Assembly (NCBI GenBank): GCA_045808065.1 | Contig: JBJMGD010000011.1 | Coordinates: 128,577-192,576 of the forward strand | Length of the DNA stretch: 64,000 bases | Source of the DNA: Terriglobales bacterium | GTDB taxonomy: Bacteria > Acidobacteriota > Terriglobia > Terriglobales > Acidobacteriaceae | Direction of reading: 5' to 3' | Position numbers and translations under genes: made by a program | Notes under the pieces: generated by a model | Seen by the model: only the letters and a program-made list of their open reading frames with translations | Told to the model about the DNA's origin: nothing | Databases searched by the model: none | Shown: positions 20,029 through 60,393 of the stretch, one piece after another | Layout: each line of letters begins with the position of its first letter | Position numbering within the stretch: position 1 is the first letter of the stretch

Positions 20029-20043
20029 GATTTCGGGTTAGGA

Positions 20044-20547: not shown

Positions 20548-20846
20548 TTCCACTCTCCTGGTATTTGATTCTCGGTGCCATCCTCTTCGCGATCGGCGTG
20601 GCGTCGTTTCTCATCAAGCGCAACATCATCACCATTTTCATGTCCATCGAGCTGATGCTGAACGCGGTGAACCTCACGTTTATTGCCTTCGCCAGCCACT
20701 GGCATCAGGTGAGCGGACAGGTGTTTGTCTTTTTCGTGATGGTCGTAGCCGCCGCTGAAGCAGCGGTTGGACTGGCGATTGTCCTCTCCGTTTTCCGGAC
20801 ACGCGAAACATTGAATGTCGATCAGGTGAACCTGCTCAAGCTATGA
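20544..20846 (+). CDS. nuoK: NADH-quinone oxidoreductase subunit K
   Basis: 100 aa. It has [12 protein letters not shown] and [18 protein letters not shown]. Its start overlaps nuoJ by 4 nt. Confidence 0.95.
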
Positions 20847-44683: not shown

Positions 44684-44746
44684 GCTGCGAATTCACCTCT
44701 AGCGCCATAACCGTCGACTCGAGTGGCGGACACACATCGTCTGGTA

Positions 44747-45010
44747 CTACATCTTTGTCACAGGATTGGGAGGAGGAACTTGGCCTTGCGCAGCTTCTTC
44801 TTTCCGCACGGCGGCTTCCGCAGCCTGGAAACCAAGCTTCGAGTGCGTACCATCACAAAAAGGCTTGTTCGTGGATGCACCGCAACGGCAGAGGGAAAAA
44901 GCTGGTTTACCGCTGAGATCCCATTCACGTCCTTCGGCGTCGACTAGCTTCACCATTCCCTCGACACGATACGGCCCATTCGGTTTCACCGTGATCTTGA
45001 CATCTGACAT
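44747..45010 (-). CDS. CDGSH-type iron-sulfur domain protein
   Basis: The start was set at ATG 45010 (MSDVKITVKPNGPY), preceded by GAGAGGG. It has the CRCGASTNKPFCDGTH motif. Confidence 0.8.
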   Translation of the reverse strand: MSDVKITVKPNGPYRVEGMVKLVDAEGREWDLSGKPAFSLCRCGASTNKPFCDGTHSKLGFQAAEAAVRKEEAAQGQVPPPNPVTKM

Positions 45011-45113
45011 GTAGTCCCTCTCTGTTGTCCAGTGTAATAGAGCCAGACCAAGTATCGAGAAAATGCACACAGAACCAGGCTTACGGATTACTCCCAACTA
45101 GAATGTGCGCACT

Positions 45114-47327: not shown

Positions 47328-48406
47328 GCCGCGGCCCCCGGTTCAGCCATCAGCGGCATCGTTTCCACGGAACCAAGCTTCACGCTCTGCCGATCAAAGT
47401 AAATGGACTCGTACAGGCTCAAATACTTGGCAACCATGACGCCGACGGAAAAGTTCTCCCTGGCGTACTCATGGATGACCTCTGATGAAATTGAAAGATT
47501 GCAAATACGCTCTGTCATCTCCTCGACATTTTCGCAAACGTAACCAGAGACTCCGTCGACCACTACTTCGCTTACCGATCCTCCCCGCAACGCGATCACT
47601 GGCGTGCCGCATGCCATGGCCTCGATCATCACCAATCCGAACGGCTCATTCCATTGAATGGGAAAGAGCATCGCCATCGAATTCCCCAACAGCTCATTTT
47701 TTGCCTGAAGGTCGGCTTCCCCGACGTATTCGATAAAGCGGCCATCGATGTGGGGCTTGACCTCAGCTTCAAAGTAGCTCTTAAACATCGGCTGCACTTC
47801 GCCCGCGATCTTGAGCGGAATCCCAGTTTTCTTTGCCACGGCGATCGCCAGATGGGGACCCTTCACCGGCGCCAAGCGTCCGATGAAACTGAGATATTGC
47901 TGCTTGTGTTTCTGAAATGGATAATCCCCGATCTTTATTCCGTGATGGATCGTCTGCCGCCGCGGCATGGCTTCAAGAGAGCGTTGGAAATCGCTGATGG
48001 TGACGTAATTCACGTCCGGATAGTAGGCATAGAAGGCGCTGAGGCTGTCTTCATGGGGATGGTGAACCGTGTAGACGAACGGGAGATCCAACAATCGGGA
48101 GATCGCTAGTCCGGGAGCGTTGTTCAGATGCAGAATGTCACAATCTGGTGCGGCGTCAGCAATCGCCCAGGCGGTGTGATTCATGTCCTTCAAGCTGCCA
48201 AAGATGTCGCCGTGTAAGGGCCAATCTGAGTTCGGGTACAGGGATCTCACTTCCACGTCCACGGTCGAATCGCCATTAGCGTAGACCACCACGTCAACGC
48301 CGCGTTGCTTCAGCCCCTCGGCAAGATGGCCTATGAACAGCTCGGTTCCTCCGTACATCCTGGGCGGCACAGCGATGAAAGGCGAGGCGATCAGGGCAAT
48401 TCTCAT
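47324..48406 (-). CDS. GT4-family (GT-B) glycosyltransferase
   Basis: 360 aa. It has MRIALIASPFIAVPPRMYGGTE and C-terminal EPFGLVMIEAMACGTPVIALRGGSVSEVV. It overlaps the GDE-like gene by 4 nt. Confidence 0.9.
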   Translation of the reverse strand: MRIALIASPFIAVPPRMYGGTELFIGHLAEGLKQRGVDVVVYANGDSTVDVEVRSLYPNSDWPLHGDIFGSLKDMNHTAWAIADAAPDCDILHLNNAPGLAISRLLDLPFVYTVHHPHEDSLSAFYAYYPDVNYVTISDFQRSLEAMPRRQTIHHGIKIGDYPFQKHKQQYLSFIGRLAPVKGPHLAIAVAKKTGIPLKIAGEVQPMFKSYFEAEVKPHIDGRFIEYVGEADLQAKNELLGNSMAMLFPIQWNEPFGLVMIEAMACGTPVIALRGGSVSEVVVDGVSGYVCENVEEMTERICNLSISSEVIHEYARENFSVGVMVAKYLSLYESIYFDRQSVKLGSVETMPLMAEPGAAA

Positions 48407-48566
48407 TTGTCTCCTTAAATCAAGAGGTTGCGGGACTTAGCGGAGGTATCTGCCAGGATCGTGCACTTCGAACATTGATAAGATGCGGAACCTTGAGGCA
48501 GACGTTGGCGCGTGGGCCAGGGAATGGTTGGTGCAGCAACTTCGTTGCGGTTGATTATCAAGGGCT

Positions 48567-49667
48567 CTAGCTCACCAGGGCGCCGGTCGAGACACTCTGC
48601 CGCTGCTTTGAACGCTCAATCGCATTCTCAAACTGTATCGCGCGGACCTCACTGGTGTGTTCGGCGAGGACACGCTCTTGAGCTGCATCACCGATTTCTC
48701 GCAATTCAGAATCCGAGAGTGAAAGATAACTCAGTACATCGTCCGCATCGACGGGCAGCAGTATCTCCCGTCCGGGAACGAAGAAGGAGTCGAGCCCGGG
48801 CCAATTATCGGAGAGGATGGCCGCGCCGCATGCAGCGGCCTCAAACAATCGCACTGAAGGCGAATAGCCCGCGATAACCATCTCGCGGCGCGTGACATTC
48901 AGGTTAAGGCGCGACGAGGAGTAAAAACGCGCGTGCCAACGTGGATTTAAATGGACAATGCGCCGAATGTTCTTCGCCCAACGAATTTGTTTTGGATATT
49001 GCGGTCCAGCAACGATGAAATGTTTGTCTGGCGATCGCATCGCCGGACGCACCAGCAACTCTTCGAGCTTTGCCTGGCGGTCAGGGGCATAGGTTCCCAT
49101 GTAGCTCAGATCGCACGCGAAACGTTTGTTCGTGCCGAAGCGGCGATACTGGCGGGGATCAAATGAGCAATAAAGCGGAACCGCTGATCGTGCTGCAAAA
49201 AGCTGTTCGATCTCCCCCAGCATCGGACCGCCAGTGAAGCTGAAATACACATCGAAACCCGCAACCTGCCCAGCTTCCAAATAGTCTGTTTTGCCGCGAT
49301 CGCGAAGGCTCGCCACCGTAATGGGAGTATCGATGTCGTAGAACGCTTTCGCAGCGGCGCGACTGTCAAAGAGTTCATCGATCGCAGCAATGCCGTCTGG
49401 AAAGTAAGACCCAACCAATCCCACATCAGCACTCACGAGCTCTCTCCGCACTTCGGTCACGATGCTTGACCAGCTGTCGTAAAGTCTCAGACGACAGAAC
49501 GATGGTTCTGGCAGATCGCGATTGGATGCGTACCACTCGAGGTCTCTCTCGTAGAACACAATGTCGTGCCCGCGACGATGGAGCGCTTCCAGCAGCGCGC
49601 GGAATGTGGTCGCGTGCCCATTCCCCCAAGCCGACGTGATGGAGAGGCCAAAGACAACGATCTTCAT
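48567..49667 (-). CDS. CgeB-like GT-B glycosyltransferase, paralog A
   Basis: The start was set at ATG 49667 (MKIVVFGLSITSAWGNGHATTFRALLEAL). The C-terminus has SPSVRLFEAAACGAAILSD. The layout matches paralogs B and C. Confidence 0.75.
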   Translation of the reverse strand: MKIVVFGLSITSAWGNGHATTFRALLEALHRRGHDIVFYERDLEWYASNRDLPEPSFCRLRLYDSWSSIVTEVRRELVSADVGLVGSYFPDGIAAIDELFDSRAAAKAFYDIDTPITVASLRDRGKTDYLEAGQVAGFDVYFSFTGGPMLGEIEQLFAARSAVPLYCSFDPRQYRRFGTNKRFACDLSYMGTYAPDRQAKLEELLVRPAMRSPDKHFIVAGPQYPKQIRWAKNIRRIVHLNPRWHARFYSSSRLNLNVTRREMVIAGYSPSVRLFEAAACGAAILSDNWPGLDSFFVPGREILLPVDADDVLSYLSLSDSELREIGDAAQERVLAEHTSEVRAIQFENAIERSKQRQSVSTGALVS

Positions 49668-49675
49668 GGTTTTGT

Positions 49676-50758
49676 CTAGGCTACCGCACAAGGACGCACG
49701 GCTTGTTCCAGCAACATTGAAACCTCAACGGCTCGTTGCGAATAGGTGTGATCTCGCAATGCGCGTCGGTGCATTGCGAGTCCAATTCCTTCTGCTTCTT
49801 CGCGAGCGGTAGTGCGTAACAAATGAACAATCTCCTCCGCGGAGCTCGCTACCAGAATTTCTTCTTCCGGCTCAAAGAATGTTCCGATTCCAGCCCATGC
49901 GTCGGTGATCAAGCACGCGCCAGCTCCGGCCGCCTCAAAGACTCTGGTCGGAGGAGAGAAACCCACATTGGCCATCGAGTCGCGATTTAAATTCAGCACC
50001 ATGCGAGCAGAGCAGTTGACCCGATTGTGGTCCCCAGTTCCAACGTGACCGATCCAGCGAATATTTGTCGGAAGAGTCTTGTTGCCCCAACCCTCTCCGC
50101 CAAGAATGAAGCGCAGGTCGGAAGCCAGTTCGGCAGCTTTTACGAAGAAGGCTTCCACGCGGCGTTCACGATCCGGCAGGCGATTTGCAACCAGCAGGAG
50201 ATCGCAATCGAACGCCGAGTCTTTCGAAACTGGATAATGGGTTGCCGGCTCGAGAGCGTTGTAAATCGGGTGGCAATTACGTGCTCCCAGACGCAAATAG
50301 TGGTCGACGACGGGCGGACCACCGCCATAGGTAAACACGAAATCGTACTCGGGGATCAGTTTGCGAAATTCGTCTGAGGAATTATGTTCAACCCGGGCTA
50401 GAGTTGCCGGCGCATCCACATCCCAGAATGCGCGGAGGGCGTCAGTTTTGATGCCGCGCGCCACAGCACGCTCAAGTTCAACGTCGTCAGCACCTACACC
50501 GCTGTGTTTGATGATGAGCTCAGCTCCAGCTGCCCTTGCCAACATTTCCGGCAAATCGGTCGGAGTCGTATAGATGAGACTCTCGACGTAGCTGTAATCG
50601 CCCGCATCACGCTTTTGCTGCCTTCCGTAAATGTCGGGCTCAGCAAAGATAATGCGATGGCCGAGTAGAGCAAGATTGCGATAAATCCCGCGGTAATATG
50701 TCGCCGCTCCGTTCCAGTAGGAAGAGGTAATGCTGGAACCGAAGACGAAAATCTTCAT
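49676..50758 (-). CDS. CgeB-like GT-B glycosyltransferase, paralog B
   Basis: 360 aa. It has MKIFVFGSSITSSYWNGAATYYRGIYRNL and SPPTRVFEAAGAGACLITD. Confidence 0.75.
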   Translation of the reverse strand: MKIFVFGSSITSSYWNGAATYYRGIYRNLALLGHRIIFAEPDIYGRQQKRDAGDYSYVESLIYTTPTDLPEMLARAAGAELIIKHSGVGADDVELERAVARGIKTDALRAFWDVDAPATLARVEHNSSDEFRKLIPEYDFVFTYGGGPPVVDHYLRLGARNCHPIYNALEPATHYPVSKDSAFDCDLLLVANRLPDRERRVEAFFVKAAELASDLRFILGGEGWGNKTLPTNIRWIGHVGTGDHNRVNCSARMVLNLNRDSMANVGFSPPTRVFEAAGAGACLITDAWAGIGTFFEPEEEILVASSAEEIVHLLRTTAREEAEGIGLAMHRRALRDHTYSQRAVEVSMLLEQAVRPCAVA

Positions 50759-51873
50759 GGCGACATTTCCTCATAGATCCCGACCAACTGTTCCGCCCGA
50801 TGCATGCAGGTGTGACGCTTGCGAACGGTTTCGCGCCCACTCTCGCCGAGCTGACTCCGGGCATTATCGTCTTTGAGCAGATACTCGATTTCCGTGCGCA
50901 TGCTGTTGCCGTCCGGAACGCAAAGATAATCCTGCCCGGGACGGAATAGTTCCTCAGCATCATTCCACGGCGCACATAGTAATGGAGCTCCACAAGCGAG
51001 AGCTTCGAATACCCGAATTGTCGGAATGCCGCTCAAGCCATTTGCATACTGCCGCCGCGGTACATGCAGCGACAAAGCGCTGTCACTGTAGGCTCGAGGA
51101 GCCTTGAGGTTCGGCAAGTAGCCGCGATATTCGATGCCGGCCTGCTGCAATGTTTCCAGAGCCGGCCCTGGATACCGGACGCCGTATGCAATCACTTTCC
51201 GCCCCGGCAAGTTGGCGGCTGGGCGCACCAGGAACTCCATTAACTCTTGCGTTCGTTCTTCGTCACCCCAATTGCCGATCCAGAGTACGTCTGCATCGCG
51301 CCTTGCTCTATGAGGCGCGAACACCTCGGTATCGGCGGCTTCGTGAAATGTCCATACCCGCGGCACGCCGAAGCCGTCCGCGTAAATTCGGCGAATTGCT
51401 TCACCGAATGCGAGGATGCCATCGACTTTATGCAAATGGAATCGAAGAATCTCGCCGGGAGAGGTGTAAGCGCGGTGGTGGGTGTCATGGAAGAGTGCGC
51501 GGAATCCGTACTTTTCCCTCAGCTCCAGGACTTTGTTCACTAGCCATGGCTCGTTCCATTCGTGAATGAGTACGAGGTCGACGTCCTTCAATTCCTCGTC
51601 GAGAAACGGATCGAGGGTGCTGTCGTTTTGATAAAAATGGATATCGAGTTCGGGATAGGTTCGGCGAAAATCATCTACGGCTTCAATGGCAGTTTCGCCC
51701 TCGTGCCTCATCAAATTGCTAAGCGACCAGGCGCCTAACTCTTCGTAGGAGCGAACATCATGTCCGAGGCGGATCAGGGCGCGAGACAATCCGCGCAGAA
51801 AATGCGCGTTGCCATGATTCCAATCGGAGACCAGTGAGTGCGCGAATATTCGAATTCGCAATTTGCCGTTCAC
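50755..51873 (-). CDS. CgeB-like GT-B glycosyltransferase, paralog C (more divergent)
   Basis: 372 aa. It has IRIFAHSLVSDWNHGNAHFLRGLSRAL and IPTIRVFEALACGAPLLCAPW. It overlaps its neighbours by 4 nt on both sides. Confidence 0.7.
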   Translation of the reverse strand: MNGKLRIRIFAHSLVSDWNHGNAHFLRGLSRALIRLGHDVRSYEELGAWSLSNLMRHEGETAIEAVDDFRRTYPELDIHFYQNDSTLDPFLDEELKDVDLVLIHEWNEPWLVNKVLELREKYGFRALFHDTHHRAYTSPGEILRFHLHKVDGILAFGEAIRRIYADGFGVPRVWTFHEAADTEVFAPHRARRDADVLWIGNWGDEERTQELMEFLVRPAANLPGRKVIAYGVRYPGPALETLQQAGIEYRGYLPNLKAPRAYSDSALSLHVPRRQYANGLSGIPTIRVFEALACGAPLLCAPWNDAEELFRPGQDYLCVPDGNSMRTEIEYLLKDDNARSQLGESGRETVRKRHTCMHRAEQLVGIYEEMSP

Positions 51874-52973
51874 GCGGCTGCAACCTCCGCAGAAACAAGT
51901 GTGCGGTAGTGCCCGAGGTACTCCTCGGCCATCTTGTCAGAATTGAAGTTGCGCGCGCGCTCCAGGGCGCGGCCGCCGTATTCCGATCTCCGCGCTGGGT
52001 TAGATGCAAGTTCCTGAATTGTGAGTACCAGGCTTTGTGGATTGTTGGCCTCGAAATAGATAGCGTCGTCCCCCCAGATCTCCCGAAGGCTTGGTATGTC
52101 GTTGAGGACGAGAGCGCATCGGGAAAGGCCTGCTTCAAGAGGAGCCAATCCAAACGGCTCATACCGGGAGGTCGCGACATAAATGGCGGCTCTGGCAAAC
52201 AGTTGCCGCAACTGTACCTCAGACTGCCGCCCTTTCATCTGCAGCTTCGATAGATGCCCAGAGGACTGCGCCGACGCTACGGCTCCCTCGGGGCTTTGTT
52301 CTGGGCCAATCAAGATCGTTTCAAGTGGCAGATCGTCACGGAGTAGCAGAGTTGGCTGCTTGCCGGCATCCCACAGACGGCCAACCGAAATTGTGTATTC
52401 CTCTTTGGTGAAATGTGGGATGAACAGCTTGGGGTCACGACCGTTGTAGACAACTGCCTTTCGTTTCGGATCGCCATAATGGGCGCAAGCTTGGTCCAAC
52501 ATCCAGCGTGTCGGGGCTATCGCCAGATCAGCGCCTCGCCAGCCTCGAATTACATTTTCCCGATAGGTGCGAATCCATTCAGTATCGGGCGGCTGGGCTC
52601 CATGCACTGAGACCCACCAACTAATAACGTCGCTATGAGCTACAACGATTCGCGGTAAATCCCAATCGAGACCCCCGAAATAGAACTGATTGAAGTGCAA
52701 CAGGTCGGGCTTGGCTTCGGCGATGATCGACTGCAAGAACTCAGTTGATTGCCTAAGGTCCGATTGAGCGTCCTGCATCCACTCCAGGCGGAAGGCAGTG
52801 GGATGGAACAAAACGTCTGGCAGTTCTTCGATCCACTCGGATTGAGCTGCTGAGGGAAGCTCGCCGAAGCTCACCAATGTGATCCTGATGCCCCGGCGCG
52901 AGAGCTGCGTCACGAGTTCGCGGGTGTACGTCCAGACTCCGCCAACTGTGTCCGCAGTCATCAGTATGTGCAT
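51870..52973 (-). CDS. GT4-like GT-B glycosyltransferase
   Basis: 367 aa. It has MHILMTADTVGGVWTYTRELV and C-terminal YEPFGLAPLEAGLSRCALVLNDIPSLRE. Confidence 0.8.
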   Translation of the reverse strand: MHILMTADTVGGVWTYTRELVTQLSRRGIRITLVSFGELPSAAQSEWIEELPDVLFHPTAFRLEWMQDAQSDLRQSTEFLQSIIAEAKPDLLHFNQFYFGGLDWDLPRIVVAHSDVISWWVSVHGAQPPDTEWIRTYRENVIRGWRGADLAIAPTRWMLDQACAHYGDPKRKAVVYNGRDPKLFIPHFTKEEYTISVGRLWDAGKQPTLLLRDDLPLETILIGPEQSPEGAVASAQSSGHLSKLQMKGRQSEVQLRQLFARAAIYVATSRYEPFGLAPLEAGLSRCALVLNDIPSLREIWGDDAIYFEANNPQSLVLTIQELASNPARRSEYGGRALERARNFNSDKMAEEYLGHYRTLVSAEVAAA

Positions 52974-54250
52974 TCAAGGTCCTCGATGGCCGCCGGCTGC
53001 TGCTCCTGGATGTCGCTGAAGCCTTTGTCTTTAAAGAGCGACGTGTAGAAGTGATGCGCCCGCTCCCACGCTGTGTCGTCCGGCAACTCACCAAAAGTTT
53101 GTACATAAAGTGGGCTCCCTGGAAAGGGAAACATTGGAACTGGCTCGCTTACCCAGACACCACGCGCCTTGAGCTCTTGCTGCCAGCGATGGATTTCAAT
53201 TTTATCGTCCTTCTCGGTCAGAATCAGGTTTGCTTGTACCCAGGGAATCCGCTGACGAGCGTAGATCAGCAGCTCGCCAATGCGGCCAGTATCTAGGCGG
53301 CAGTTCTTATTCAGCTCTTCCCTACCGGCTTCGGTGATGGATTCAATGCCGCACTCGATGGAAATGCAGTGAGCGCGCCCAAGCAAATCGAGCGTCTGCT
53401 CATTCCAGAGGTCGATGCGGGTCTGAAATCCGATCTTCACGGCCCGTTCTGCAGTGCCTTCCAACAAACGTAAAACGTTCTTGCCAACCCCGAAAATCTC
53501 GTCAATGAAGTAGATGTAATCGACGCCACGAGCGATCAGGCGATCTATTTCGACCAGCACAGCTTGGACCGAGCGTTCGCGAAACTTATTGCGAAAGAGT
53601 GTCTTGTTGCAAAAGGTGCAAGCCCATGGACAGCCGCGAGCGAACTCAAGTTCGGCTCCCCGCCCTCCGCCGCTGAATACGTGGTGGCGGTGTTCATGCA
53701 GCTCGACGGGGTAGTTATGGAAATCCAGGGCACTGAGCGCCTTCATGTCAGTCACGCCCAATCCGGCGCTGATGTGCTCCCCGCGATCGTCGTGCCAACA
53801 ACAACCCGCGATGTCCTGCCATGGCTTAGAAGCAAGTTGTGGGATCGTCTGGTCGGGTTCGCCGCGCATAGCCACTGTGCATCCGATCTTACGCAACGTA
53901 GCCCCAGGCGTTGCCGAGGGATGAGGACCAATGGCTACACCCGTTCCATGGCTGCGCAAGGCTTGGAACCATTCTCGAGGAACTCGCAGCTCGGGCGGGG
54001 GACAACGCCAAAATAAATACGAAGGGGCGGTCGGAATAACGAGGAAGTCTGGATTGAAATCGCGAATCCTGGGAGCGACATCCGTAGTGCTCAGGTTTTC
54101 CACCTGCGCGTCTATGAGCAGCGCTTCTCCCCCTGATTGCCGTACCTGATCGAAAGCAAACAGCAGCTCCAATGGATAGTGCGGTTCAGTGCAGCCGAAA
54201 TAGGTCGAGCCGAAGAAATTCCAATTCGGATTGACGAGAGCGAACTTCAT
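52961..54250 (-). CDS. B12-binding-domain radical SAM protein (class B rSAM)
   Basis: 429 aa. The N-terminus is a Rossmann-like B12-type domain (LIDAQVENLS...FLVIPTAPSY...VAMRGEPD). It is followed by ARGCPWACTFCNK (CX3CX2C) and a TIM-like rSAM core (YIYFIDEIF, IECGIES). Confidence 0.85.
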   Translation of the reverse strand: MKFALVNPNWNFFGSTYFGCTEPHYPLELLFAFDQVRQSGGEALLIDAQVENLSTTDVAPRIRDFNPDFLVIPTAPSYLFWRCPPPELRVPREWFQALRSHGTGVAIGPHPSATPGATLRKIGCTVAMRGEPDQTIPQLASKPWQDIAGCCWHDDRGEHISAGLGVTDMKALSALDFHNYPVELHEHRHHVFSGGGRGAELEFARGCPWACTFCNKTLFRNKFRERSVQAVLVEIDRLIARGVDYIYFIDEIFGVGKNVLRLLEGTAERAVKIGFQTRIDLWNEQTLDLLGRAHCISIECGIESITEAGREELNKNCRLDTGRIGELLIYARQRIPWVQANLILTEKDDKIEIHRWQQELKARGVWVSEPVPMFPFPGSPLYVQTFGELPDDTAWERAHHFYTSLFKDKGFSDIQEQQPAAIEDLECTY

Positions 54251-55362
54251 TATGCCGTCCTCTCCAGCAACTCGACATTGGCAACTTCGCCGGTTTGAAG
54301 CTCAGGTTCTAGCGGGCTCGCGCCGAAGATGGCCGGATGCTCTCTCCAAAACTCGAAGATTGCCTCGAGAGTTTGCCGTACAGACGACCGGGGCTTCCAT
54401 CCGGTGTGCAGGGTGAGTTTCGAGTAATCGCTCACGTAAATAAGCTGGTCGCCTGGTCGGCGGCGGTCGTGCGAGTATCTCAGACGCTTGCCCGTGAGGG
54501 AGCCGATTTCATCGATCAACTCGACGAGAGAAATTGTGTTTTCCGGTCCGCCGCCTACGTTGTAGATCTCTCCGCCACTTTCTGAGAGCGATGAACGAAC
54601 AGCCTCGAACGCGCGAACCAGGTCTCCGACGTAGAGCACGTCGCGGACTTGCCGTCCATCGCCGTAGATGACAAGCGGAGCACCACGTAACGCCGTGTAA
54701 AGAAAATGAGCAACCCAGCCCTGATCTTCGTTCCCGTACTGCATCTCGCCCGCGATGCAGGACATGCGAAAGACCACGGTGGGCAAGCCGTACATGCGGG
54801 AATACTCACGAACATATTGATCGGCCGCTCCCTTAGAACAACCGTATGGAGAATGGAAATCCAGCGGCTGCTCCTCGCAGACCGCTTTTCGGTCAGCGTA
54901 AGCGTAGCGAGTTGACCCACGTTTGAGCGGCTCTTCGAGCATCTCGCCATAAACCTTGTTAGTGGAAGTGAACAGGACAAACGGCCGATTTCCCGAAAGT
55001 CGCGCCGCCTCAAGAACATTGAAGGTTCCAATGCTGTTGGTCTCGAAGTCGCAACGCGGATCGGTGATGGAAGTAGTTACGGCAACCTGTGCCGCAAATT
55101 GATAAATCTCGGTGACATCCTTCGTAGCGCGCTGAACCGCGGCTGAATTCCGAACGTCGCCTATAGTGACGCGCAGCCGACCAGACTTGGCCGCCGCCTG
55201 CTTGAGTTGCTCCAGGTTATGTTGAACGCCCCGTCGAGAAAGATTGTCGAAGATGTGCACTCGGGCGTTGGTCTCGAGCAGCAGGCGACGCGCCAAATTT
55301 GCGCCGATAAATCCTGCTCCGCCAAAGATCAGTACCGACCGATTCTCGTCTTGCTTAGCCAT
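54250..55362 (-). CDS. NAD-dependent sugar epimerase/dehydratase (extended SDR)
   Basis: The start was set at ATG 55362, preceded by GAGGAGA. A GTG at 55413 that overlaps the upstream stop is the alternative. It has VLIFGGAGFIGANL and YGCSKGAADQY (YxxxK). Its stop overlaps the rSAM start by 1 nt. Confidence 0.85.
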   Translation of the reverse strand: MAKQDENRSVLIFGGAGFIGANLARRLLLETNARVHIFDNLSRRGVQHNLEQLKQAAAKSGRLRVTIGDVRNSAAVQRATKDVTEIYQFAAQVAVTTSITDPRCDFETNSIGTFNVLEAARLSGNRPFVLFTSTNKVYGEMLEEPLKRGSTRYAYADRKAVCEEQPLDFHSPYGCSKGAADQYVREYSRMYGLPTVVFRMSCIAGEMQYGNEDQGWVAHFLYTALRGAPLVIYGDGRQVRDVLYVGDLVRAFEAVRSSLSESGGEIYNVGGGPENTISLVELIDEIGSLTGKRLRYSHDRRRPGDQLIYVSDYSKLTLHTGWKPRSSVRQTLEAIFEFWREHPAIFGASPLEPELQTGEVANVELLERTA

Positions 55363-55409
55363 TCTCCTCGATTCCCTTCCTCGGCTTTCGTCGCAACCCG
55401 GTACACGGG

Positions 55410-56531
55410 TCACGCTGTAAGCCCAAACGTTTGCAACTCGGCAACCATGTTGTCCGCTTTGTCCTCCGCGCTCTGTTCACGCAGCCAACGGACTAGTTCC
55501 AATACACCTTCATCGAACTTCACCTGAGGTTCGTATCCCAGCATCACTCGGGCTTTACTGATATCGCCAAAGCAGTGGCGGATATCTCCCGCTCGATACT
55601 TACCCGTTATCTCAGAGGGGATCTCCAAGCCCAGCGAACGTGACAACGCGTCTGCCACCTCTTGGATTGAGACCGGCATCCCCGAGCCGATGTTGAAGGC
55701 GCGCCCATTCGCTTCGTCGGAGTTCATCGCCAGCAGATTCGCTGCGACCACGTCATGCACGCTCACGAAGTCGCGCATCTGCTGACCGTCTTCAAAAATC
55801 AAAGGTGCGCGCCGATTTAGTAGCCGTGAGGCAAAAATCGCTGCTACACCGGTGTATGGATTCGAGAGCGCCTGGCGGGGACCGTAGATGTTGAAATACC
55901 GCAACGCGACTACAGGAAGTCCGTAGGTTTTGCCGTACAGCAAGCAGATTTCTTCCTGGTCCTTCTTTGAAAGCGCATACACGGACGTACATTGCAGCGG
56001 CTTGGTCTCACTGGTCGGAAGCGGAGTAAGGTCGGTGCGGCATCTTGGACATAGAACCTCCCACCGCTTGCTCAGTAATTGACCGGAGTCTCTCGGTCCT
56101 GGGGCAACATCACCGCAGTTCGCGCAGAGGTATTGGCCTTCTCCATAGATCGACATTGACGAGGCGACTACCAGCTTCTCGACCCGGCTCTTGCGATCCA
56201 GCAGAGCTTGCAATAGAACCGCGGTGCCCTGGGTGTTCGAGGCCATGTAGTCAGCGATCTGATACATGGATTGGCCGACACCAACTGCGGCGGCTAGATG
56301 AAATATGACTTCAACGTCATCAATTGCCCGTCGCACAGCATCAGCATCTCGCATGTCGCCCCTGATCAGGTCGACCTCAGGTGATAGATAATCTGGAACT
56401 CCATTTCCATGAACTTGTGAGGACAAGTTATCTAACGCACTTACCTCGTGGCCAGCGGTCAGCAGGGCGTCTGCCAGATGGGAACCTACAAATCCAGCTC
56501 CACCAGTGATCAGGATTTTCTTCGTACTCAT
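55410..56531 (-). CDS. NAD-dependent sugar epimerase/dehydratase (extended SDR) with an inserted four-Cys zinc ribbon
   Basis: The start was set at ATG 56531 (MSTKKILITGGAGFVGSHL), preceded by GGAGA. It has SSMSIYG and YALSKK (S/YxxxK). The insert is YLCANCG...VLCPRCRTD, between the Ser and Tyr motifs. Confidence 0.85.
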   Translation of the reverse strand: MSTKKILITGGAGFVGSHLADALLTAGHEVSALDNLSSQVHGNGVPDYLSPEVDLIRGDMRDADAVRRAIDDVEVIFHLAAAVGVGQSMYQIADYMASNTQGTAVLLQALLDRKSRVEKLVVASSMSIYGEGQYLCANCGDVAPGPRDSGQLLSKRWEVLCPRCRTDLTPLPTSETKPLQCTSVYALSKKDQEEICLLYGKTYGLPVVALRYFNIYGPRQALSNPYTGVAAIFASRLLNRRAPLIFEDGQQMRDFVSVHDVVAANLLAMNSDEANGRAFNIGSGMPVSIQEVADALSRSLGLEIPSEITGKYRAGDIRHCFGDISKARVMLGYEPQVKFDEGVLELVRWLREQSAEDKADNMVAELQTFGLTA

Positions 56532-56560
56532 CTCGTCGTCTCCAGCGTTCAAATTGCTCG

Positions 56561-57502
56561 CTACCTGCTTGCAGCTTCCCTCGCATAGGGTCGGCCGTCT
56601 TTTTCCCTTGCGTGTGCTCCTCTAGGCGGCGCATACCGCCTGACCGCCCACTCCGCAAACTCTGCAAACGCATTTGCCTCCTTAGGAGGACTTGTGTAAT
56701 GCGGAGCTATGCCCAAATGCTCAGGAGTAAAACAGAGCGTGATAGTGGTGTCGAACTCCTCCAACGCTCCCATCTGCCGATCGAACCACTCCTCCGCATT
56801 GGGACGATACGTGTCCGCCCAACTCACGCCGGTCCGCAGATGTCGGACCTTGAGCCGTCTCAGCCATTCCACGCCCAAGTCCAGCCGATGATCTTCGAAA
56901 TGAAACCACTGGCAGAGCCCGAGCCCTTGCGGAAAATGTTCAGCGGCCAGCTTGGGAGTGCCATCCTCGCGCAGCAGCCCCATGTAGTAGTGGCGATAGT
57001 AGGCGCTGCCTTCAGCTTCCTTGTGGCGCGTTGTGGCAGTCCACGAAGCTGGAAGATCGAAGAGGCTGTACCAGTGAACGCGATCCACTCTCCCGAGCAA
57101 AAGCTCCGCCATCCGCTGCAGTCCGAAAAGCTGCACTTCCTCCGCCCCGAACGATGAGGCGCCAACCTCAGAAATCCAGATCGGAAGTTTCGTAACCTCC
57201 CGTACTTCGTCGAGCTTTGCCGGCCATTCGTTTACGTTCCAGTGATTCCAGTCCAGCGGGAATCCGTGCAGGGCCACCACGTCGATCGCGTCCAGCACGC
57301 CATGCGAAGCCATTAAGCGGATGAAATGCGGATCGATAGGCGAAATCCCGCCGAGCACGATCGGCAACTCGGGGTTGACTCGCCGTATCGCTTTAGCAGC
57401 CTGGATAGCCATCTCGGCAAACATCTTCCATTCGGGATCGATTTTGAAATCCCAATGGGAAAGATTGTTTGGCTCATTCCACAGCATTACGGCTTCGACC
57501 AT
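56561..57502 (-). CDS. Clan GH-A-like (beta/alpha)8 glycosidase-fold protein, apparently circularly permuted
   Basis: 313 aa. An NEP acid/base-type motif sits at residues 9-11 (MLWNEPNN). ALHGF, the nucleophile-type WISEVGAS and HWYSLFD follow. The C-terminal third (RHLRTGVSWAD, TITLCFTPEH, FAEFAEWAVRRYAP) looks like strands 1-3, which normally precede NEP. Confidence 0.6.
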   Translation of the reverse strand: MVEAVMLWNEPNNLSHWDFKIDPEWKMFAEMAIQAAKAIRRVNPELPIVLGGISPIDPHFIRLMASHGVLDAIDVVALHGFPLDWNHWNVNEWPAKLDEVREVTKLPIWISEVGASSFGAEEVQLFGLQRMAELLLGRVDRVHWYSLFDLPASWTATTRHKEAEGSAYYRHYYMGLLREDGTPKLAAEHFPQGLGLCQWFHFEDHRLDLGVEWLRRLKVRHLRTGVSWADTYRPNAEEWFDRQMGALEEFDTTITLCFTPEHLGIAPHYTSPPKEANAFAEFAEWAVRRYAPPRGAHAREKDGRPYAREAASR

Positions 57503-57526
57503 TAGTTCCTCATGGTTCTTTCACTT

Positions 57527-58357
57527 CTAAAGTGTTCCCTCGAGCTCGAGATCGAGGACGTATTGACCTTTCCGTTGTACCCGGCGCGGCTCGCACACGT
57601 AAGTCTCAGACTCGGGATGTGCGACTATCTCCAAACCCGAACTGCGCAGCATGCCTTCTACGGCCCCGCGGTTCGGTATCCACCAATTGGTAGGATCATT
57701 GGCATAGCTGTTCTCAATGAAGTACATGCATGGAAAGTCAGGATCTTTAAAAGGGTGCATGTCCCAGAATTGGTAGTCCTCCTTCCACTGCCGTTCCTCC
57801 TCGGAACCACGAATCATGCTCTGGAAGAAAAGCTTTCGTGAAACTTTCTTGATGATCTTATCGAGGGCGTACAGTGGATATCGCAAGTGATAGAAGACAC
57901 CGAGGAAGAGCACATAATCGAATTGGCCTTCGATTCTGTCGACCTGATATACAGAACGCTTCTGAAATTCGATCTCCAGTTTCAACGTTTCGGCGGCAAA
58001 ACGGGCTTGGTTCAGGTAGCGCTCATCGACATCCACGCCTAGTACTCTGCCCGCACCCCTCTTTTTGAGCTCAATGCAATAAAAGCCGCCGTTACAGCCG
58101 ATGTCGAGCACAGAAGCTCCCTGGAGGTCTTCGGGAAAGGCTCTGGAGATGTGTTTCCATTTAACGTTCGGGAAGTCGCCAAGAAAATGATTAGGGGCGG
58201 TCCACACTCCGTTGATATTTAGGTTGTGAAACCAGTCTCCGAGCGAACTAATGCGTTCCGCCAAGCTCGGCTCCTCGGCTGCGGTTCGGTGCTGCTGGTT
58301 TTCGTCAGTTTCGGAGTGAATGTCGATGACTAGCTGCCGGGTTTGATCTGGTTGCAC
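57527..58357 (-). CDS. Class I SAM-dependent methyltransferase (DUF1698/CmoB-like)
   Basis: 276 aa with a GTG start, preceded by GGGAGA. It has WFHNLNINGVWTAPNHFLGDFPNVKW, then motif I VLDIGCNGGFY and VLGVDVD. Confidence 0.8.
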   Translation of the reverse strand: MQPDQTRQLVIDIHSETDENQQHRTAAEEPSLAERISSLGDWFHNLNINGVWTAPNHFLGDFPNVKWKHISRAFPEDLQGASVLDIGCNGGFYCIELKKRGAGRVLGVDVDERYLNQARFAAETLKLEIEFQKRSVYQVDRIEGQFDYVLFLGVFYHLRYPLYALDKIIKKVSRKLFFQSMIRGSEEERQWKEDYQFWDMHPFKDPDFPCMYFIENSYANDPTNWWIPNRGAVEGMLRSSGLEIVAHPESETYVCEPRRVQRKGQYVLDLELEGTL

Positions 58358-58574
58358 CGCTGGTTCTCCCGCTCTTTGCGATCACAGTTGCCCATTTCGG
58401 CATCAGCTCTCGGCCTTGTTACAAAACGCTGTGATCTATCCTCTGCTCCGAGTTTCGGAACAGCAACTAGCGAAGTTGGTTAGAGGAAAAGGAACTTACC
58501 TTGGATGTCCCGTTGCGTGCGTCAAGGCGCGTCACAAGAAGTGTGCAATCAGGTAGTTACTTGCAGCTGCAACG

Positions 58575-60011
58575 TCAAGATGAGCTAAGGTTTGCAGATG
58601 CTCCAGCTGTCGAGCTTTCATACAGCTTCAGCTTTCGGTAAAGCGTCGTTTTCCCGATGCCTAGCATCTGCGCCGCGAGTAGTTTGTCACCTTTCGCTTC
58701 CGCGACGGCATTAAGAATTGCGTGCCGTTCAACTTCTACAATCGGCACCACGCGACCGACCCGACGCAGTGGTTCATCACCAGGAGCTCGTGGCATTGTG
58801 AACCGTGAATTGATCTGAGTTGGAAAGTCGATCGGCTCAAGCATCAGATCAGTTCCAAGCGCCACCGCGCGTTCGATGAAGTTCTCAAGCTCACGCACGT
58901 TTCCCGGCCACGAATAAGTCTTCAGCATCCTTATTGCCTCACGCGAAATCTGCCGCCGGGGTTGGCCCGTGCTCCTCGCGATCCGCTCCAGAAAGGTTTC
59001 AATAAGGTCCTCGATATCCTCCATCCGCTCGCGCAACGGGGGCAACTTCAATGTGACCACATTCAGGCGGAAATAGAGATCCTTGCGGAATCTCCCTTCT
59101 TTCACAGCTTCTTCCAAGTTCCGATTTGTGGCGGCTATAACGCGCACGTCGATGCGAATGCGTTTCGTGCTTCCGACCGGGCGAATCTCCTTTTCTTGTA
59201 AAGCGCGAAGAAGCTTTGCTTGAAGCTCTACTGGAAGTTCTCCGATTTCATCGAAAAAGACCGTGCCTCCCTCCGCGATCTTCAGCAATCCCTCCTTGGA
59301 CCGCTCTGCCCCGGTAAACGATCCTCTCTCATGGCCGAAGAGCTCAGTCTCCATCAGCGTCGGGACCAATGCGCCGCAGTCGACTGGCATGAATGGACGT
59401 TCGCGTCGTGTGCCGCTGAAGTGGATAGCGCGAGCAACCAACTCCTTGCCAGTGCCACTTTCCCCAAGGATCAGCACGGGATGAATGTTGGCAGCCACTT
59501 TGCCGATAATCTTGTACAGCTTCCACATCACGGGTGTCTTTCCCACGATGCCGTAGGCTCCTTCCACGTCTGGCGATTCGCGGATCCGGGGGTGCTCACC
59601 TTTCTCTGATCGGTACTGTTCCATGGCGCGCTCGATTGTAAGCCGCAGAATGCCTGCTTCCAATGGCTTCGGCAGGTAATCGAATGCCCCTAGCTTGGTC
59701 GCCTGAACCGCCGATGAAAAACTGGGCTTCTCCGCGACCACGATAACCTGCGTCTCCGGATACCAATAGTGAACGTGCCGCAACAATTCGAGTTCCTGGG
59801 CGCCTGGAAGATTTTCACTGAGCAGGAGTACGTCTACCAACCCTGATTCCAAGGAGTCGAGGACCATGTCGGAGTCTCGGGCCGAGCGAACCGTGAGAGG
59901 TAAGTCACGAATGACATCGATGGACAAGTCAACAGTGCGGCTATCGGTATCGGCGACCAAAAGCTCGGACGAGGTAAATACCGGGCCGGAAACCACATTA
60001 GGGAGAATCAC
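58575..60011 (-). CDS. Sigma-54-dependent enhancer-binding protein (NtrC family) with a degenerate receiver domain
   Basis: 478 aa. It has a receiver-like N-terminus ending in GAFDYLPKP, an AAA+ core ([38 protein letters not shown]) and a C-terminal Fis-type HTH ([17 protein letters not shown]). Confidence 0.9.
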
Positions 60012-60393
60012 TCGGCGGCTAGAGCAGGCGTGCTTCCAACCGTTTAATAGCCGTAACTTCTTGAAAACAAGAGATCCCGTTTTGGTAAGGTTCGTCCCGC
60101 CATCTGCCTCATTTGAAACTTGCTCTGCGGAGATGCTCGCTCGAACGTCATGGGGGATGCCAGAATACTATGGCATCGGACGGGCGCTTACCTTCCCTTT
60201 TTGGGATGGTTTCCTATTCTGGGAGCGTCTCCAAGCAAAAAATCGAGGCCATGGCCTATGGACGATTCAGAGGTGCTTGGCTTTTGGTCTGAAGGAGGCA
60301 GAAAAAACGTCAGTTACAATAGAGGATTCCTCACAGAGCCTGTCAGGTCACAGCCGACCTTGACGCACTGCTGGGAGGAAAGGTCTGTCTAGG

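What the first reader, a model, noticed from the sequence alone, without database searches (positions are those of the whole stretch)
52961..54250. Class-B (B12-binding) radical SAM enzyme embedded between sugar epimerases and glycosyltransferases
The protein has a cobalamin-type Rossmann domain followed by CX3CX2C (GCPWACTFCNK). Class-B rSAM enzymes typically methylate unactivated carbon or phosphorus, or perform ring contractions.

Its start overlaps the stop of an SDR sugar epimerase/dehydratase by 1 nt. Its 3' end overlaps a GT4-like gene by 13 nt. That implies a nucleotide-sugar or glycan substrate, for example C-methylation of a sugar.

The locus also has a separate conventional SAM methyltransferase. 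The product may therefore carry two chemically different methylations.
Basis: inference. Interest (0 to 1): 0.65.

Follow-up and report, generated by a model that had tools for sequence, protein, structure and literature searches.

The report
Catalogued B12-type radical SAM, glycan cluster
The gene is real and encodes a B12-domain radical SAM enzyme of an already catalogued but never characterised family (TIGR04295), which sits in a conserved, apparently cytoplasmic sugar-building gene cluster found in soil Acidobacteria and Alphaproteobacteria; what reaction it performs on the sugar is still unknown.

Summary
A 429-aa ORF on the minus strand (52961-54250) has an N-terminal B12-binding-like Rossmann domain and a GCPWACTFCNK CX3CX2C motif. 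It overlaps the upstream SDR stop by 1 nt (TAATG) and the downstream GT4 start by 13 nt.

It is not a new family. It scores 616.8 bits (cutoff 400) against NCBIfam TIGR04295 'B12_rSAM_oligo', which JGI names the 'rhizo-twelve system'. The nearby methyltransferase is the partner family TIGR04290. I found no paper on either.

At least 594 species genomes carry a relative. The core cluster recurs in Terriglobales and on Azospirillum, Bradyrhizobium, Tistrella and Geminicoccaceae plasmids: methyltransferase, GH-A-like barrel, two SDRs, rSAM, GT4 and three CgeB-like GTs. Overlapping stop/start codons are conserved, and natural rSAM-GT4 and GH-SDR fusions exist. UGDH, UXS, sugar nucleotidyltransferase and inositol-3-P synthase genes are recurrent add-ons. 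No cluster protein has a transmembrane segment.

The sugar context is therefore strongly supported. C-methylation is not. The fold matches TsrM, MgmA, AprD4 and OxsB about equally, and the best solved sequence relative is AprD4, a cobalamin-independent sugar diol dehydratase.

Verdict: an ordinary member of a known, uncharacterised family, of moderate interest.

The parts
52961..54250 (-). TIGR04295-family B12-binding-domain radical SAM protein (429 aa), the subject of the finding
   Evidence: NCBIfam TIGR04295 at 616.8 bits, cutoff 400, covering 1-422 of 422. Pfam Radical_SAM plus B12-binding. AF2 model pLDDT 75. Foldseek hits TsrM, MgmA, AprD4 and OxsB at E 1e-15 to 1e-12.
53834..54181 (-). 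B12-binding-like Rossmann domain (residues 24-139), with family-invariant loops T74APSYLFWRCPPPE87, G108PHxSATP115 and R129GEPD133
   Evidence: PF02310 at E 1.2e-5, below GA in this protein. 13 of 16 diverse members match, best E 4.6e-10. Invariant columns.
53681..53698 (-). His-rich motif H185-E-H-R-H-H190, invariant in the TIGR04295 clade and absent from sister families at about 30% identity
   Evidence: Present in 80 of 83 loci. H187, H189 and H190 are invariant. Absent from sister representatives. Its role is unknown.
53609..53632 (-). CX3CX2C radical SAM [4Fe-4S] motif (C207, C211, C214)
   Evidence: Read directly. Present in 83 of 83 related loci.
54250..55413 (-). SDR_B: extended SDR closest to CDP-tyvelose 2-epimerase. 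Its stop overlaps the rSAM start.
   Evidence: PDB 9rl0 at 257 bits and 1orr at 233 bits; next is dTDP-glucose 4,6-dehydratase at 127 bits. GxxGxxG and YxxxK intact. Stop/start overlap of -4 or -1 in 68 of 75 loci.
55410..56552 (-). SDR_A: GalE-like extended SDR with a 29-aa CxxC...CxxC insert (residues 143-171, window 56040-56126)
   Evidence: Pfam Epimerase hit split in two stretches. PDB UDP-glucose 4-epimerase-like hits. Cys4 insert present in 53 of 58 orthologues.
56561..57502 (-). GH clan-A-like TIM barrel (PGAP calls orthologues 'beta-xylosidase'), circularly permuted
   Evidence: PslG at E 3.9e-6. Glyco_hydro_cc weak. Permutation relative to the Tistrella GH-SDR_B fusion. NEP and SEVG motifs kept.
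57527..58357 (-). TIGR04290-family class I SAM methyltransferase, the catalogued partner of TIGR04295
   Evidence: 358 bits against cutoff 300. Present in 32 of 46 full-flank loci and in all four alphaproteobacterial plasmid loci examined.
51870..52973 (-). GT4_a glycosyltransferase. Its start lies 13 nt inside the rSAM 3' end. It is fused to the rSAM in some lineages.
   Evidence: Pfam Glyco_transf_4 plus Glycos_transf_1. Overlap conserved in 61 of 66 loci. 844-aa natural fusion P0123.
48567..51873 (-). Three tandem CgeB-like (PF13524) glycosyltransferase paralogues (50755-51873, 49676-50758, 48567-49691)
   Evidence: Pfam Glyco_trans_1_2 at 123-126 bits each. 27-31% identical to each other. 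Conserved in 32 of 46 full-flank loci and in Alphaproteobacteria.
47324..48406 (-). GT4_b glycosyltransferase, a Terriglobales-specific accessory
   Evidence: Pfam and NCBIfam weak glycogen-synthase-like hits. Present in 17 of 46 full-flank loci.
45114..47327 (-). GDE_N_bis / MGH1-like / GDE_C glycoside hydrolase, a Terriglobales-specific accessory
   Evidence: Pfam. Present in 19 of 46 full-flank loci.
58575..60011 (-). NtrC-type sigma-54 response regulator, co-directional and upstream; a possible regulator
   Evidence: Pfam Response_reg, Sigma54_activat and HTH_8. Present in 11 of 46 full-flank loci. No -24/-12 promoter match found in 58358-58574.

Best explanation
The gene encodes an orthologue of the TIGR04295 ('rhizo-twelve') B12-domain radical SAM protein, from a Terriglobales-type acidobacterium.

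Shown: it has an intact [4Fe-4S]/SAM motif and a class-B two-domain fold. It is co-translated with a CDP-tyvelose-2-epimerase-like SDR upstream and a GT4 glycosyltransferase downstream. It sits inside a conserved cluster of soluble enzymes: two SDRs, GT4, three CgeB-like GTs, a SAM methyltransferase and a GH-A-like barrel. That cluster has no exporter, flippase or membrane protein.

Inferred: the cluster builds an intracellular, methylated oligosaccharide or glycoside. The rSAM performs the one step that needs radical chemistry on a sugar carbon. Its substrate is either the nucleotide sugar delivered by SDR_B or the sugar handed to or from GT4.

My committed guess for the reaction is cobalamin-dependent methylation of an unactivated sugar carbon. 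5'-deoxyadenosyl radical would abstract H from a carbinol carbon and the substrate radical would capture methyl from methylcobalamin. This is the chemistry GenK uses on gentamicin and Fom3 uses on CMP-activated hydroxyethylphosphonate.

The general part (radical modification of a sugar in this pathway) is likely, about 0.8. The specific C-methylation step is only about 0.4.
For: Family membership: TIGR04295 at 616.8 bits, and TIGR04290 for the methyltransferase.

Class-B fold: TsrM at E 2e-15, MgmA, OxsB. PF02310 matches 13 of 16 diverse members. BchE and HpnR HMM alignments run from residues 1-5 through the N-terminal domain.

Sugar linkage:
- The same core order occurs in Terriglobales and on Azospirillum, Bradyrhizobium, Tistrella and Geminicoccaceae plasmids.
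- SDR_B/rSAM stop-start overlap occurs in 68 of 75 loci and rSAM/GT4 overlap in 61 of 66.
- A natural rSAM-GT4 fusion exists.
- A reduced SDR_B-rSAM-UGDH operon occurs in Acidobacteriaceae.
- UXS, sugar-1-P nucleotidyltransferase and inositol-3-P synthase are recurrent add-ons.
- The sister family at about 31% identity is also flanked by GT2s and methyltransferases.

SDR_B is closest to CDP-tyvelose 2-epimerase (257 bits). No cluster protein has a TM-like segment. Fragments of the cluster, including the rSAM gene, appear in three soil metatranscriptome assemblies at 95-100% identity.

Most characterised B12-domain rSAMs are methylases; this rests on my own knowledge.
Against: - Nothing in the sequence specifies methyl transfer.
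- With a family profile, the best solved relative is AprD4, which binds no cobalamin and dehydrates a sugar diol (60 bits against 37.6 for MgmA, 33.7 for TsrM, 30 for CysS and 29 for TokK).
- The N-terminal domain alone has no significant match to any solved cobalamin-binding domain.
- This protein's own PF02310 score is below Pfam's threshold.
- The invariant His-rich motif and the WRC loop have no counterpart in known methylases.
- The cluster already has a conventional methyltransferase.
- In one lineage the SDRs are replaced by an unknown 626-aa protein.
- In several Acidobacteriaceae the rSAM stands alone among housekeeping genes. A fixed SDR_B-product substrate is therefore not certain.
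- No literature supports any function.
Confidence: 0.4

Rival explanations
1. It is an AprD4-like, cobalamin-independent radical dehydratase, or another redox-neutral radical step such as epimerisation. The rSAM would abstract H from a sugar carbon next to a hydroxyl, eliminate water to give a keto-deoxy sugar, and one of the adjacent extended SDRs would reduce or epimerise the ketone. This mirrors the AprD4/AprD3 pair in apramycin 3'-deoxygenation. The N-terminal 'B12' domain would bind substrate rather than cobalamin.
For: AprD4 (6fd2) is the best solved sequence match: E 3.8e-6 with the single sequence and 60 bits, E 1.7e-15, with the family profile over nearly the whole barrel, residues 201-385. 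It is also in the top fold matches. Family member P0126 and sister P0164 score 58-65 bits on the AprD4 HMM. Two SDRs sit immediately upstream, with conserved translational coupling. A conventional methyltransferase already covers methylation.
Against: The AprD4 HMM scores only 27.8 bits against a cutoff of 500 for the window protein, lower than BchE, ApyD or HpnR. The AprD4 similarity is confined to the generic rSAM barrel and does not extend to the N-terminal domain. SDR_B resembles an NAD-retaining epimerase rather than a plain ketoreductase. AprD4 is so far the exception among B12-domain rSAMs; this rests on my own knowledge.
Confidence: 0.3
2. It is a cobalamin-dependent but non-methylating rearrangement on a sugar, such as ring contraction, carbocycle formation or C-C bond formation. 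OxsB (oxetane formation) and the proposed HpnJ reaction (glucosamine to cyclitol) are the precedents. The result would be an unusual branched or carbocyclic unit.
For: OxsB is among the top fold matches. BchE (cyclase) is the best-scoring characterised NCBIfam model at 69.5 bits, and HpnJ also hits. Inositol-3-phosphate synthase and a phosphatase join the cluster in Azospirillum and Bradyrhizobium, showing a cyclitol connection. The clade-specific invariant His cluster and WRC loop hint at chemistry not seen in solved methylases.
Against: All these scores are far below family cutoffs. The inositol genes are absent from the window and from the Terriglobales and Geminicoccales clusters. There is no positive evidence for any rearranged product.
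Confidence: 0.15
3. The substrate is not a sugar. The rSAM would modify a protein, lipid or cofactor, and its adjacency to sugar genes would reflect co-regulation only.
For: In several Acidobacteriaceae genomes an orthologue about 73% identical lies alone beside a SpoIIE-type phosphatase, among NadA, ABC-F, M3 peptidase and NAD kinase genes. The nearest characterised HMMs include RiPP and hopanoid methylases.
Against: Overlapping reading frames with SDR_B and GT4 occur in about 90% of loci. The rSAM-GT4 gene fusion exists. The cluster is conserved across phyla. No precursor-peptide, hopanoid or lipid genes lie in the cluster.
Confidence: 0.07

Closest known systems
NCBIfam/TIGRFAMs TIGR04295 'B12_rSAM_oligo' (JGI: 'B12-binding domain/radical SAM domain protein of rhizo-twelve system'), with partner TIGR04290 methyltransferase
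   Same: Full-length match well above the curated cutoff (616.8 against 400). The partner methyltransferase is present (358 against 300). The gene order is the same as in annotated Azospirillum, Bradyrhizobium and Tistrella loci.
   Different: The window version lacks the inositol-3-P synthase, histidine phosphatase and nucleotidyltransferase genes seen in rhizobial versions. It adds a second GT4, a GDE/MGH1-like hydrolase and a sigma-54 regulator. The family is a 'hypothetical equivalog': it is defined by sequence and context only, with no known reaction.
AprD4 (PDB 6fd2), radical SAM 1,2-diol dehydratase of apramycin biosynthesis
   Same: Best solved sequence relative over the rSAM barrel. 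It has the same two-domain architecture, acts on a sugar ring, and works with a partner reductase.
   Different: The AprD4 HMM scores 27.8 bits against a cutoff of 500. There is no detectable N-terminal-domain similarity. AprD4 lacks the HxHxHH and WRC signatures as far as the alignments show. Its substrate is an aminoglycoside pseudodisaccharide, and it is found in an antibiotic cluster.
TsrM (6wte), MgmA (9ccb), OxsB (5ul4), TokK (7kdx), CysS (9n1b): solved cobalamin-dependent radical SAM enzymes
   Same: Best fold matches (TM about 0.55-0.63, E 1e-15 to 1e-12). Rossmann domain plus partial TIM barrel, with CX3CX2C.
   Different: Only 15-19% identity. Sequence scores are 38 bits or less. Their substrates are tryptophan, MCR glutamine, a deoxyadenosine phosphate, and a carbapenem/cystobactamid. 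None sits in a GT-rich cluster.
GenK / Fom3 (class-B C-methylases acting on a sugar carbinol carbon or a CMP-activated alcohol); compared from my own knowledge, not tested here
   Same: They are the functional model for the proposed reaction: radical methylation of an sp3 carbon bearing OH, on a glycoside or nucleotide-activated substrate.
   Different: They were not retrieved as close relatives by any search here. They belong to antibiotic pathways.

Membership tests
TIGR04295 (B12_rSAM_oligo / rhizo-twelve rSAM) | HMM score at or above the curated cutoff (400 bits) with full-length coverage | tested here: met
   616.8 bits, E 1.6e-185, residues 2-426 on profile 1-422 of 422.
TIGR04295 (B12_rSAM_oligo / rhizo-twelve rSAM) | Conserved neighbourhood with the TIGR04290 methyltransferase, SDRs and multiple glycosyltransferases | tested here: met
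   TIGR04290 lies 3.3 kb upstream. The same core order is found in 31-39 of 46 full-flank loci and in four alphaproteobacterial plasmids.
'Rhizo-twelve' cassette as seen in rhizobia/Azospirillum | Inositol-3-phosphate synthase plus histidine phosphatase (and nucleotidyltransferase) in the cassette | tested here: not met
   tblastn of the Bradyrhizobium Ino1, phosphatase, NTase and phosphopentomutase finds nothing in the 64-kb window. The window carries a Terriglobales variant of the cassette.
Radical SAM superfamily | CX3CX2C cluster motif and Radical_SAM domain | tested here: met
   C207, C211, C214. PF04055 at 46.5 bits against GA 29.5. The motif is present in 83 of 83 related loci.
Class B (cobalamin-dependent) radical SAM enzymes | N-terminal Rossmann-type B12-binding domain | tested here: met
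   PF02310 at E 1.2e-5, below GA for this protein. 13 of 16 members match, best E 4.6e-10, and P0123 is above GA. The predicted fold matches TsrM, OxsB and MgmA. Caveat: AprD4 has the same domain without binding cobalamin.
Class B (cobalamin-dependent) radical SAM enzymes | Cobalamin actually bound and used | not testable with these tools
   No sequence motif is diagnostic. The N-terminal-domain profile has no significant match to solved cobalamin domains.
Class B radical SAM methyltransferases | Methyl transfer to substrate, with SAH and 5'-dAH co-products | not testable with these tools
   Requires a biochemical assay.
AprD4 family radical SAM diol-dehydratase (NF033070) | HMM score at or above 500 bits | tested here: not met
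   27.8 bits, residues 184-323 only.
BchE / HpnR / HpnJ / RiPP C-methylase / PhpK families (established non-sugar substrates) | HMM score at or above the respective curated cutoffs | tested here: not met
   BchE 69.5 against 481; HpnR 53.6 against 650; HpnJ 37.6 against 578; rSAM_ocin_1 51 against 282; ApyD 59 against 750; PhpK 38 against 600.

The most novel reading that the evidence does not exclude
TIGR04295, together with its co-translated tyvelose-epimerase-like SDR, is a previously undescribed radical route to a modified nucleotide sugar (C-methyl-branched, deoxy or rearranged). That sugar is passed directly to a soluble GT4 plus three-CgeB-like-GT assembly line. The line makes a cytoplasmic, methylated oligosaccharide or glycoside, possibly a stress or storage solute comparable in logic to mycobacterial polymethylated polysaccharides. 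The system is shared by horizontal transfer between soil Acidobacteria and plant-associated Alphaproteobacteria.
Probability: 0.3. Interest if true: 0.7.

Novelty: new member of a known kind. Interest (0 to 1): 0.42.

Why it matters
The family occurs in at least about 600 species-level genomes of abundant soil Acidobacteria and in plant-associated Azospirillum and Bradyrhizobium. It is transcribed in soil. It has been in family databases for years with no assigned reaction and no paper that I could find.

Assigning its chemistry would add either a new sugar-modifying class-B radical SAM reaction or a second AprD4-type enzyme. It would also identify the product of a conserved, export-less multi-glycosyltransferase cluster, possibly an unknown intracellular glycan. 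Genetically tractable Azospirillum and Bradyrhizobium strains carry the cluster on plasmids, so the question can be tested directly.

As a genome-scan finding, however, it is a correct annotation of a known family rather than a discovery.

Tried and rejected
1. Literature searches found nothing relevant. I searched for TIGR04295, TIGR04290 and 'rhizo-twelve'; for cluster gene combinations; for cobalamin rSAM plus nucleotide sugar; and for tyvelose 2-epimerase plus radical SAM. The single hit was a hopanoid survey.

2. I tried to decide cobalamin binding by sequence. A profile of the N-terminal 195 residues against PDB gave no significant hit: the best radical SAM chains scored E 0.4-1 and the top hits were spurious.

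3. I looked for a sigma-54 -24/-12 promoter between the regulator and the methyltransferase. There was no match within two mismatches in 58358-58574, and window-wide counts equal chance (39 against 36).

4. An Rfam scan for a cobalamin or other riboswitch found only a tRNA at 9477-9550.

5. Placement in BchE, HpnR, HpnJ, ladderane-lipid or RiPP methylase families is rejected on HMM cutoffs.

6. I rejected the idea that the two SDRs are obligatory partners. The P0126 lineage has GH-like, an unknown 626-aa protein, then the rSAM.

7. The 50%-identity representatives lacking CX3CX2C (P0122, P0132, P0138, P0144 and others) are not interpreted as pseudo-enzymes. Singleton metagenome representatives are enriched for sequencing or frameshift errors, and all 83 genomic loci keep the motif.

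8. The AT-skew dip at 20-26 kb is explained by the nuoL/M/N membrane subunits.
Full report
**1. The observation**

The ORF is real, but it lies on the minus strand: 52961..54250, 429 aa, ATG start. The plus-strand translation is full of stops. The protein carries GCPWACTFCNK at residues 206-216, with C207, C211 and C214 at window 53609-53632.

'gcaTAATGaag' shows that the upstream SDR stop shares one base with the rSAM ATG. 'gaATGcacatacTGA' shows that the downstream GT4 start lies 13 nt inside the rSAM 3' end.

Pfam finds Radical_SAM at 46.5 bits. It finds a B12-binding domain over residues 24-139 at E 1.2e-5, slightly below Pfam's own threshold for this protein. However, 13 of 16 diverse family members match that domain, with a best E of 4.6e-10.

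**2. What the protein is**

The protein is a clear member of NCBIfam TIGR04295 'B12_rSAM_oligo', a 'hypothetical equivalog'. It scores 616.8 bits against a cutoff of 400, with full-length coverage. JGI annotations of close homologues read 'B12-binding domain/radical SAM domain protein of rhizo-twelve system'. The conventional methyltransferase in the locus (57527-58357) is the catalogued partner family TIGR04290, at 358 bits against a cutoff of 300.

All characterised B12-rSAM families score far below their cutoffs:

| Family | Score (bits) | Cutoff (bits) |
|---|---|---|
| BchE | 69.5 | 481 |
| ApyD | 59 | 750 |
| HpnR | 53.6 | 650 |
| HpnJ | 37.6 | 578 |
| PhpK | 38 | 600 |
| AprD4 | 27.8 | 500 |

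It is not met.

An AlphaFold2 model (pLDDT 75, pTM 0.76) matches these solved structures about equally, at Foldseek E 1e-15 to 1e-12 and TM about 0.55-0.63:
- TsrM, MgmA and OxsB, which are cobalamin-dependent.
- AprD4, which has a B12-like domain but binds no cobalamin.

I found no paper mentioning the family or its system name, nor any describing such a cluster.

**3. Distribution and organism**

More than 5800 homologues score E<=1e-10. In the library of representatives clustered at 50% identity, 179 score E<=1e-30. The best 80 are nearly all Acidobacteriota (Terriglobales, Acidobacteriaceae, 'Candidatus Angelobacter') at 66-86% identity. The window therefore comes from a Terriglobales-type acidobacterium.

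The surrounding DNA is ordinary chromosome:
- a nuo operon at 13-26 kb
- UvrA at 60394-63336
- a P-type ATPase
- a GH20 hexosaminidase

Annotated plasmids of Azospirillum, Bradyrhizobium, Tistrella and a Geminicoccaceae strain carry orthologues at 45-48% identity to the window protein.

**4. The cluster**

In transcription order on the minus strand:

| Gene | Coordinates |
|---|---|
| NtrC-type sigma-54 regulator | 58575-60011 |
| TIGR04290 methyltransferase | 57527-58357 |
| GH clan-A-like barrel | 56561-57502 |
| SDR_A | 55410-56552 |
| SDR_B | 54250-55413 |
| rSAM | 52961-54250 |
| GT4_a | 51870-52973 |
| Three CgeB-like PF13524 glycosyltransferases | 48567-51873 |
| GT4_b | 47324-48406 |
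| GDE/MGH1-like hydrolase | 45114-47327 |

That makes twelve genes. None has a segment hydrophobic enough to be a transmembrane helix: the maximum 19-residue Kyte-Doolittle mean is 1.65 or less. There is no flippase, polymerase, ABC exporter or polyprenyl-phosphate transferase. The product is therefore probably made and kept in the cytoplasm; this is an inference.

Across 46 related loci with full 10-kb flanks, the core genes are present in 31-39: methyltransferase, GH-like, SDR_A, SDR_B, GT4_a and the three CgeB-like GTs. GT4_b, the GDE-like hydrolase and the regulator are present in only 11-19.

The same core, in the same order, occurs on the alphaproteobacterial plasmids, with different add-ons:
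- Inositol-3-phosphate synthase and a histidine phosphatase in Azospirillum and Bradyrhizobium. Bradyrhizobium also carries a sugar-1-P nucleotidyltransferase, a fourth CgeB-like GT, a phosphopentomutase-like metalloenzyme and a UDP-glucuronate-decarboxylase-like SDR.
- A UDP-glucuronate-decarboxylase-like SDR in Tistrella and a corresponding SDR in the Geminicoccaceae strain.

None of the Bradyrhizobium Ino1, phosphatase, nucleotidyltransferase or phosphopentomutase genes has a counterpart anywhere in the window.

**5. Strength of the linkage**

- The SDR_B stop overlaps the rSAM start by 4 or 1 nt in 68 of 75 loci.
- The rSAM stop overlaps the GT4_a start, by 4 to 23 nt, in 61 of 66 loci.
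- A natural 844-aa rSAM-GT4 fusion exists, followed by three CgeB-like GTs.
- In Geminicoccales the GH-like domain is fused to the N-terminus of SDR_B.

SDR_B is closest to CDP-tyvelose 2-epimerase (257 and 233 bits, against 127 bits for the next class). It keeps the GxxGxxG and YxxxK motifs. SDR_A is GalE-like.

In a subset of Acidobacteriaceae the cassette is reduced to SDR_B, rSAM and a UDP-glucose/GDP-mannose-dehydrogenase-family gene. This argues that the rSAM works at the nucleotide-sugar level rather than on the finished glycan.

A sister family at about 31% identity also sits between a GT2, methyltransferases and a SPASM rSAM.

Contigs from three soil metatranscriptome runs, at 95-100% identity, cover parts of the rSAM, both SDRs, the GTs and the hydrolase. 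The cluster therefore appears to be expressed in soil, with the usual caveat that DNA carry-over cannot be excluded.

**6. Limits of the linkage**

Two observations temper the picture.
- In one metagenomic lineage (P0126, 47% identity, above the family cutoff) the SDRs are replaced by a 626-aa protein with no Pfam match. The order there is GH-like, unknown protein, rSAM, GT4, CgeB-like.
- In several Acidobacteriaceae genomes an orthologue about 73% identical stands alone beside a divergent SpoIIE-type phosphatase, among housekeeping genes. I could not check whether the rest of the cassette lies elsewhere in those genomes.

**7. Mechanism**

Shown:
- an intact radical SAM motif in all 83 loci
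- a class-B two-domain architecture
- obligatory-looking co-translation with a sugar-nucleotide SDR and a GT4

Inferred: the enzyme performs a radical step on a sugar carbon of a nucleotide sugar or nascent glycoside.

The sequence does not say which step. The case for cobalamin-dependent C-methylation is as follows:
- Most characterised B12-domain rSAMs are methylases; this rests on my own knowledge.
- The N-terminal domain is recognisably PF02310-like at family level.
- It aligns from residue 1-5 with the BchE and HpnR models.

The case against is as follows:
- With a family profile, the best solved relative is AprD4, at 60 bits and E 1.7e-15 over residues 201-385. The solved methylases score 38 bits or less.
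- AprD4 is a sugar 1,2-diol dehydratase that works with a partner reductase, an arrangement echoed by the adjacent SDRs.
- The N-terminal domain alone has no significant match to any solved cobalamin domain.

The family also has its own invariant signatures with no known counterpart:
- T74APSYLFWRCPPPE87, after Rossmann strand 3
- G108PHxSATP
- C20 and H24
- the cluster H185xHxHH190, just before the barrel, which is absent from sister families

I put methylation at about 0.4, an AprD4-like dehydration or other non-methylating radical step at about 0.3, a cobalamin-dependent rearrangement at about 0.15, and a non-sugar substrate at about 0.07.

**8. Comparison and novelty**

The protein works like a class-B radical SAM enzyme and passes the tests for TIGR04295 membership. 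It fails the membership tests for every characterised family. The window's cassette is a Terriglobales variant of the 'rhizo-twelve' cassette: it has no inositol module, and it has an extra GT4, a GDE-like hydrolase and a sigma-54 regulator.

The finding is therefore a new member of a known, catalogued kind whose chemistry is unknown. The C-methylation and 'two methylations' reading is a reasonable but unsupported guess.

Interest is moderate. A specialist would not be surprised by the annotation. However, the family is widespread, expressed, unstudied, and testable in tractable Azospirillum and Bradyrhizobium strains.

Noticed in passing
window 56561-57502 (-); L084:9956-12004: The GH-A-like 'beta-xylosidase' is circularly permuted relative to the homologous domain fused to SDR_B in Tistrella. 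Window residues 5-193 align to Tistrella 120-306, and window residues 185-291 align to Tistrella 4-114. The protein starts right at the NEP acid/base motif (residue 9) and keeps a SEVG nucleophile-like motif (residue 111). PslG is the only solved relative (E 4e-6).
   Followed up: partly
window 56040-56126 (-), SDR_A residues 143-171: The GalE-like SDR carries a 29-aa CxxC...CxxC (zinc-ribbon-like) insert that splits its Pfam Epimerase match. The insert is present in 53 of 58 acidobacterial orthologues. It was not detected with the same pattern in the four alphaproteobacterial ones.
   Followed up: partly
L018, L028, L038, L051, L052 (rSAM alone); L022, L044, L050, L081, L020, L071 (SDR_B-rSAM-UGDH): Some Acidobacteriaceae carry a TIGR04295 orthologue at 70-75% identity outside the cassette. 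It is either alone next to a divergent SpoIIE-type phosphatase among housekeeping genes, or in a three-gene unit with SDR_B and a UDP-glucose/GDP-mannose dehydrogenase. Whether the rest of the cassette is elsewhere in those genomes is unknown.
   Followed up: partly
L087:116-2650 (P0123); L084:9956-12004; L085:9950-12004: Natural gene fusions occur within the cassette. One is rSAM+GT4_a (844 aa). The other is GH-like+SDR_B (682-684 aa) in Tistrella and Geminicoccaceae.
   Followed up: yes
P0122, P0132, P0138, P0144, P0155, P0190, P0194, P0230: Several 50%-identity cluster representatives keep the HxHHHH motif but lack the CX3CX2C cysteines. They could be decayed copies or assembly and frameshift artefacts. 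All 83 genomic loci examined keep the cysteines.
   Followed up: partly
L067, L075, L077, L080 versus L083:4911-5720: An NTP_transferase-family gene next to the cassette in Edaphobacter-type Acidobacteria is 62-66% identical at protein level to the one in the Bradyrhizobium plasmid cassette. That is higher than the rSAM itself across these phyla (about 45%), which suggests inter-phylum transfer of an accessory module.
   Followed up: no
L084 and L085 flanks; L082 and L083 flanks: On the alphaproteobacterial plasmids the cassette is flanked by stress and respiration genes. These include Ku and LigD, Mn catalase, a ferritin-like protein, cytochrome oxidases, and a sigma-70-family factor or two-component system. 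This is compatible with a stress-related product but has not been tested.
   Followed up: no
L088:1419-3299: A 626-aa protein with no Pfam match takes the place of the SDR pair immediately upstream of the rSAM, with a 4-nt overlap, in one metagenomic lineage.
   Followed up: partly
window 44500-60500: Contigs from three soil metatranscriptome runs (X12, X19, X20) match parts of the cluster at 95-100% identity, including 53044-54250 within the rSAM gene.
   Followed up: partly
window 20001-26000: A strongly negative AT skew (-0.18 to -0.24) coincides with the nuoL/M/N-type membrane subunits of a complex I operon that spans about 13-26 kb. This is an ordinary codon-composition effect.
   Followed up: yes
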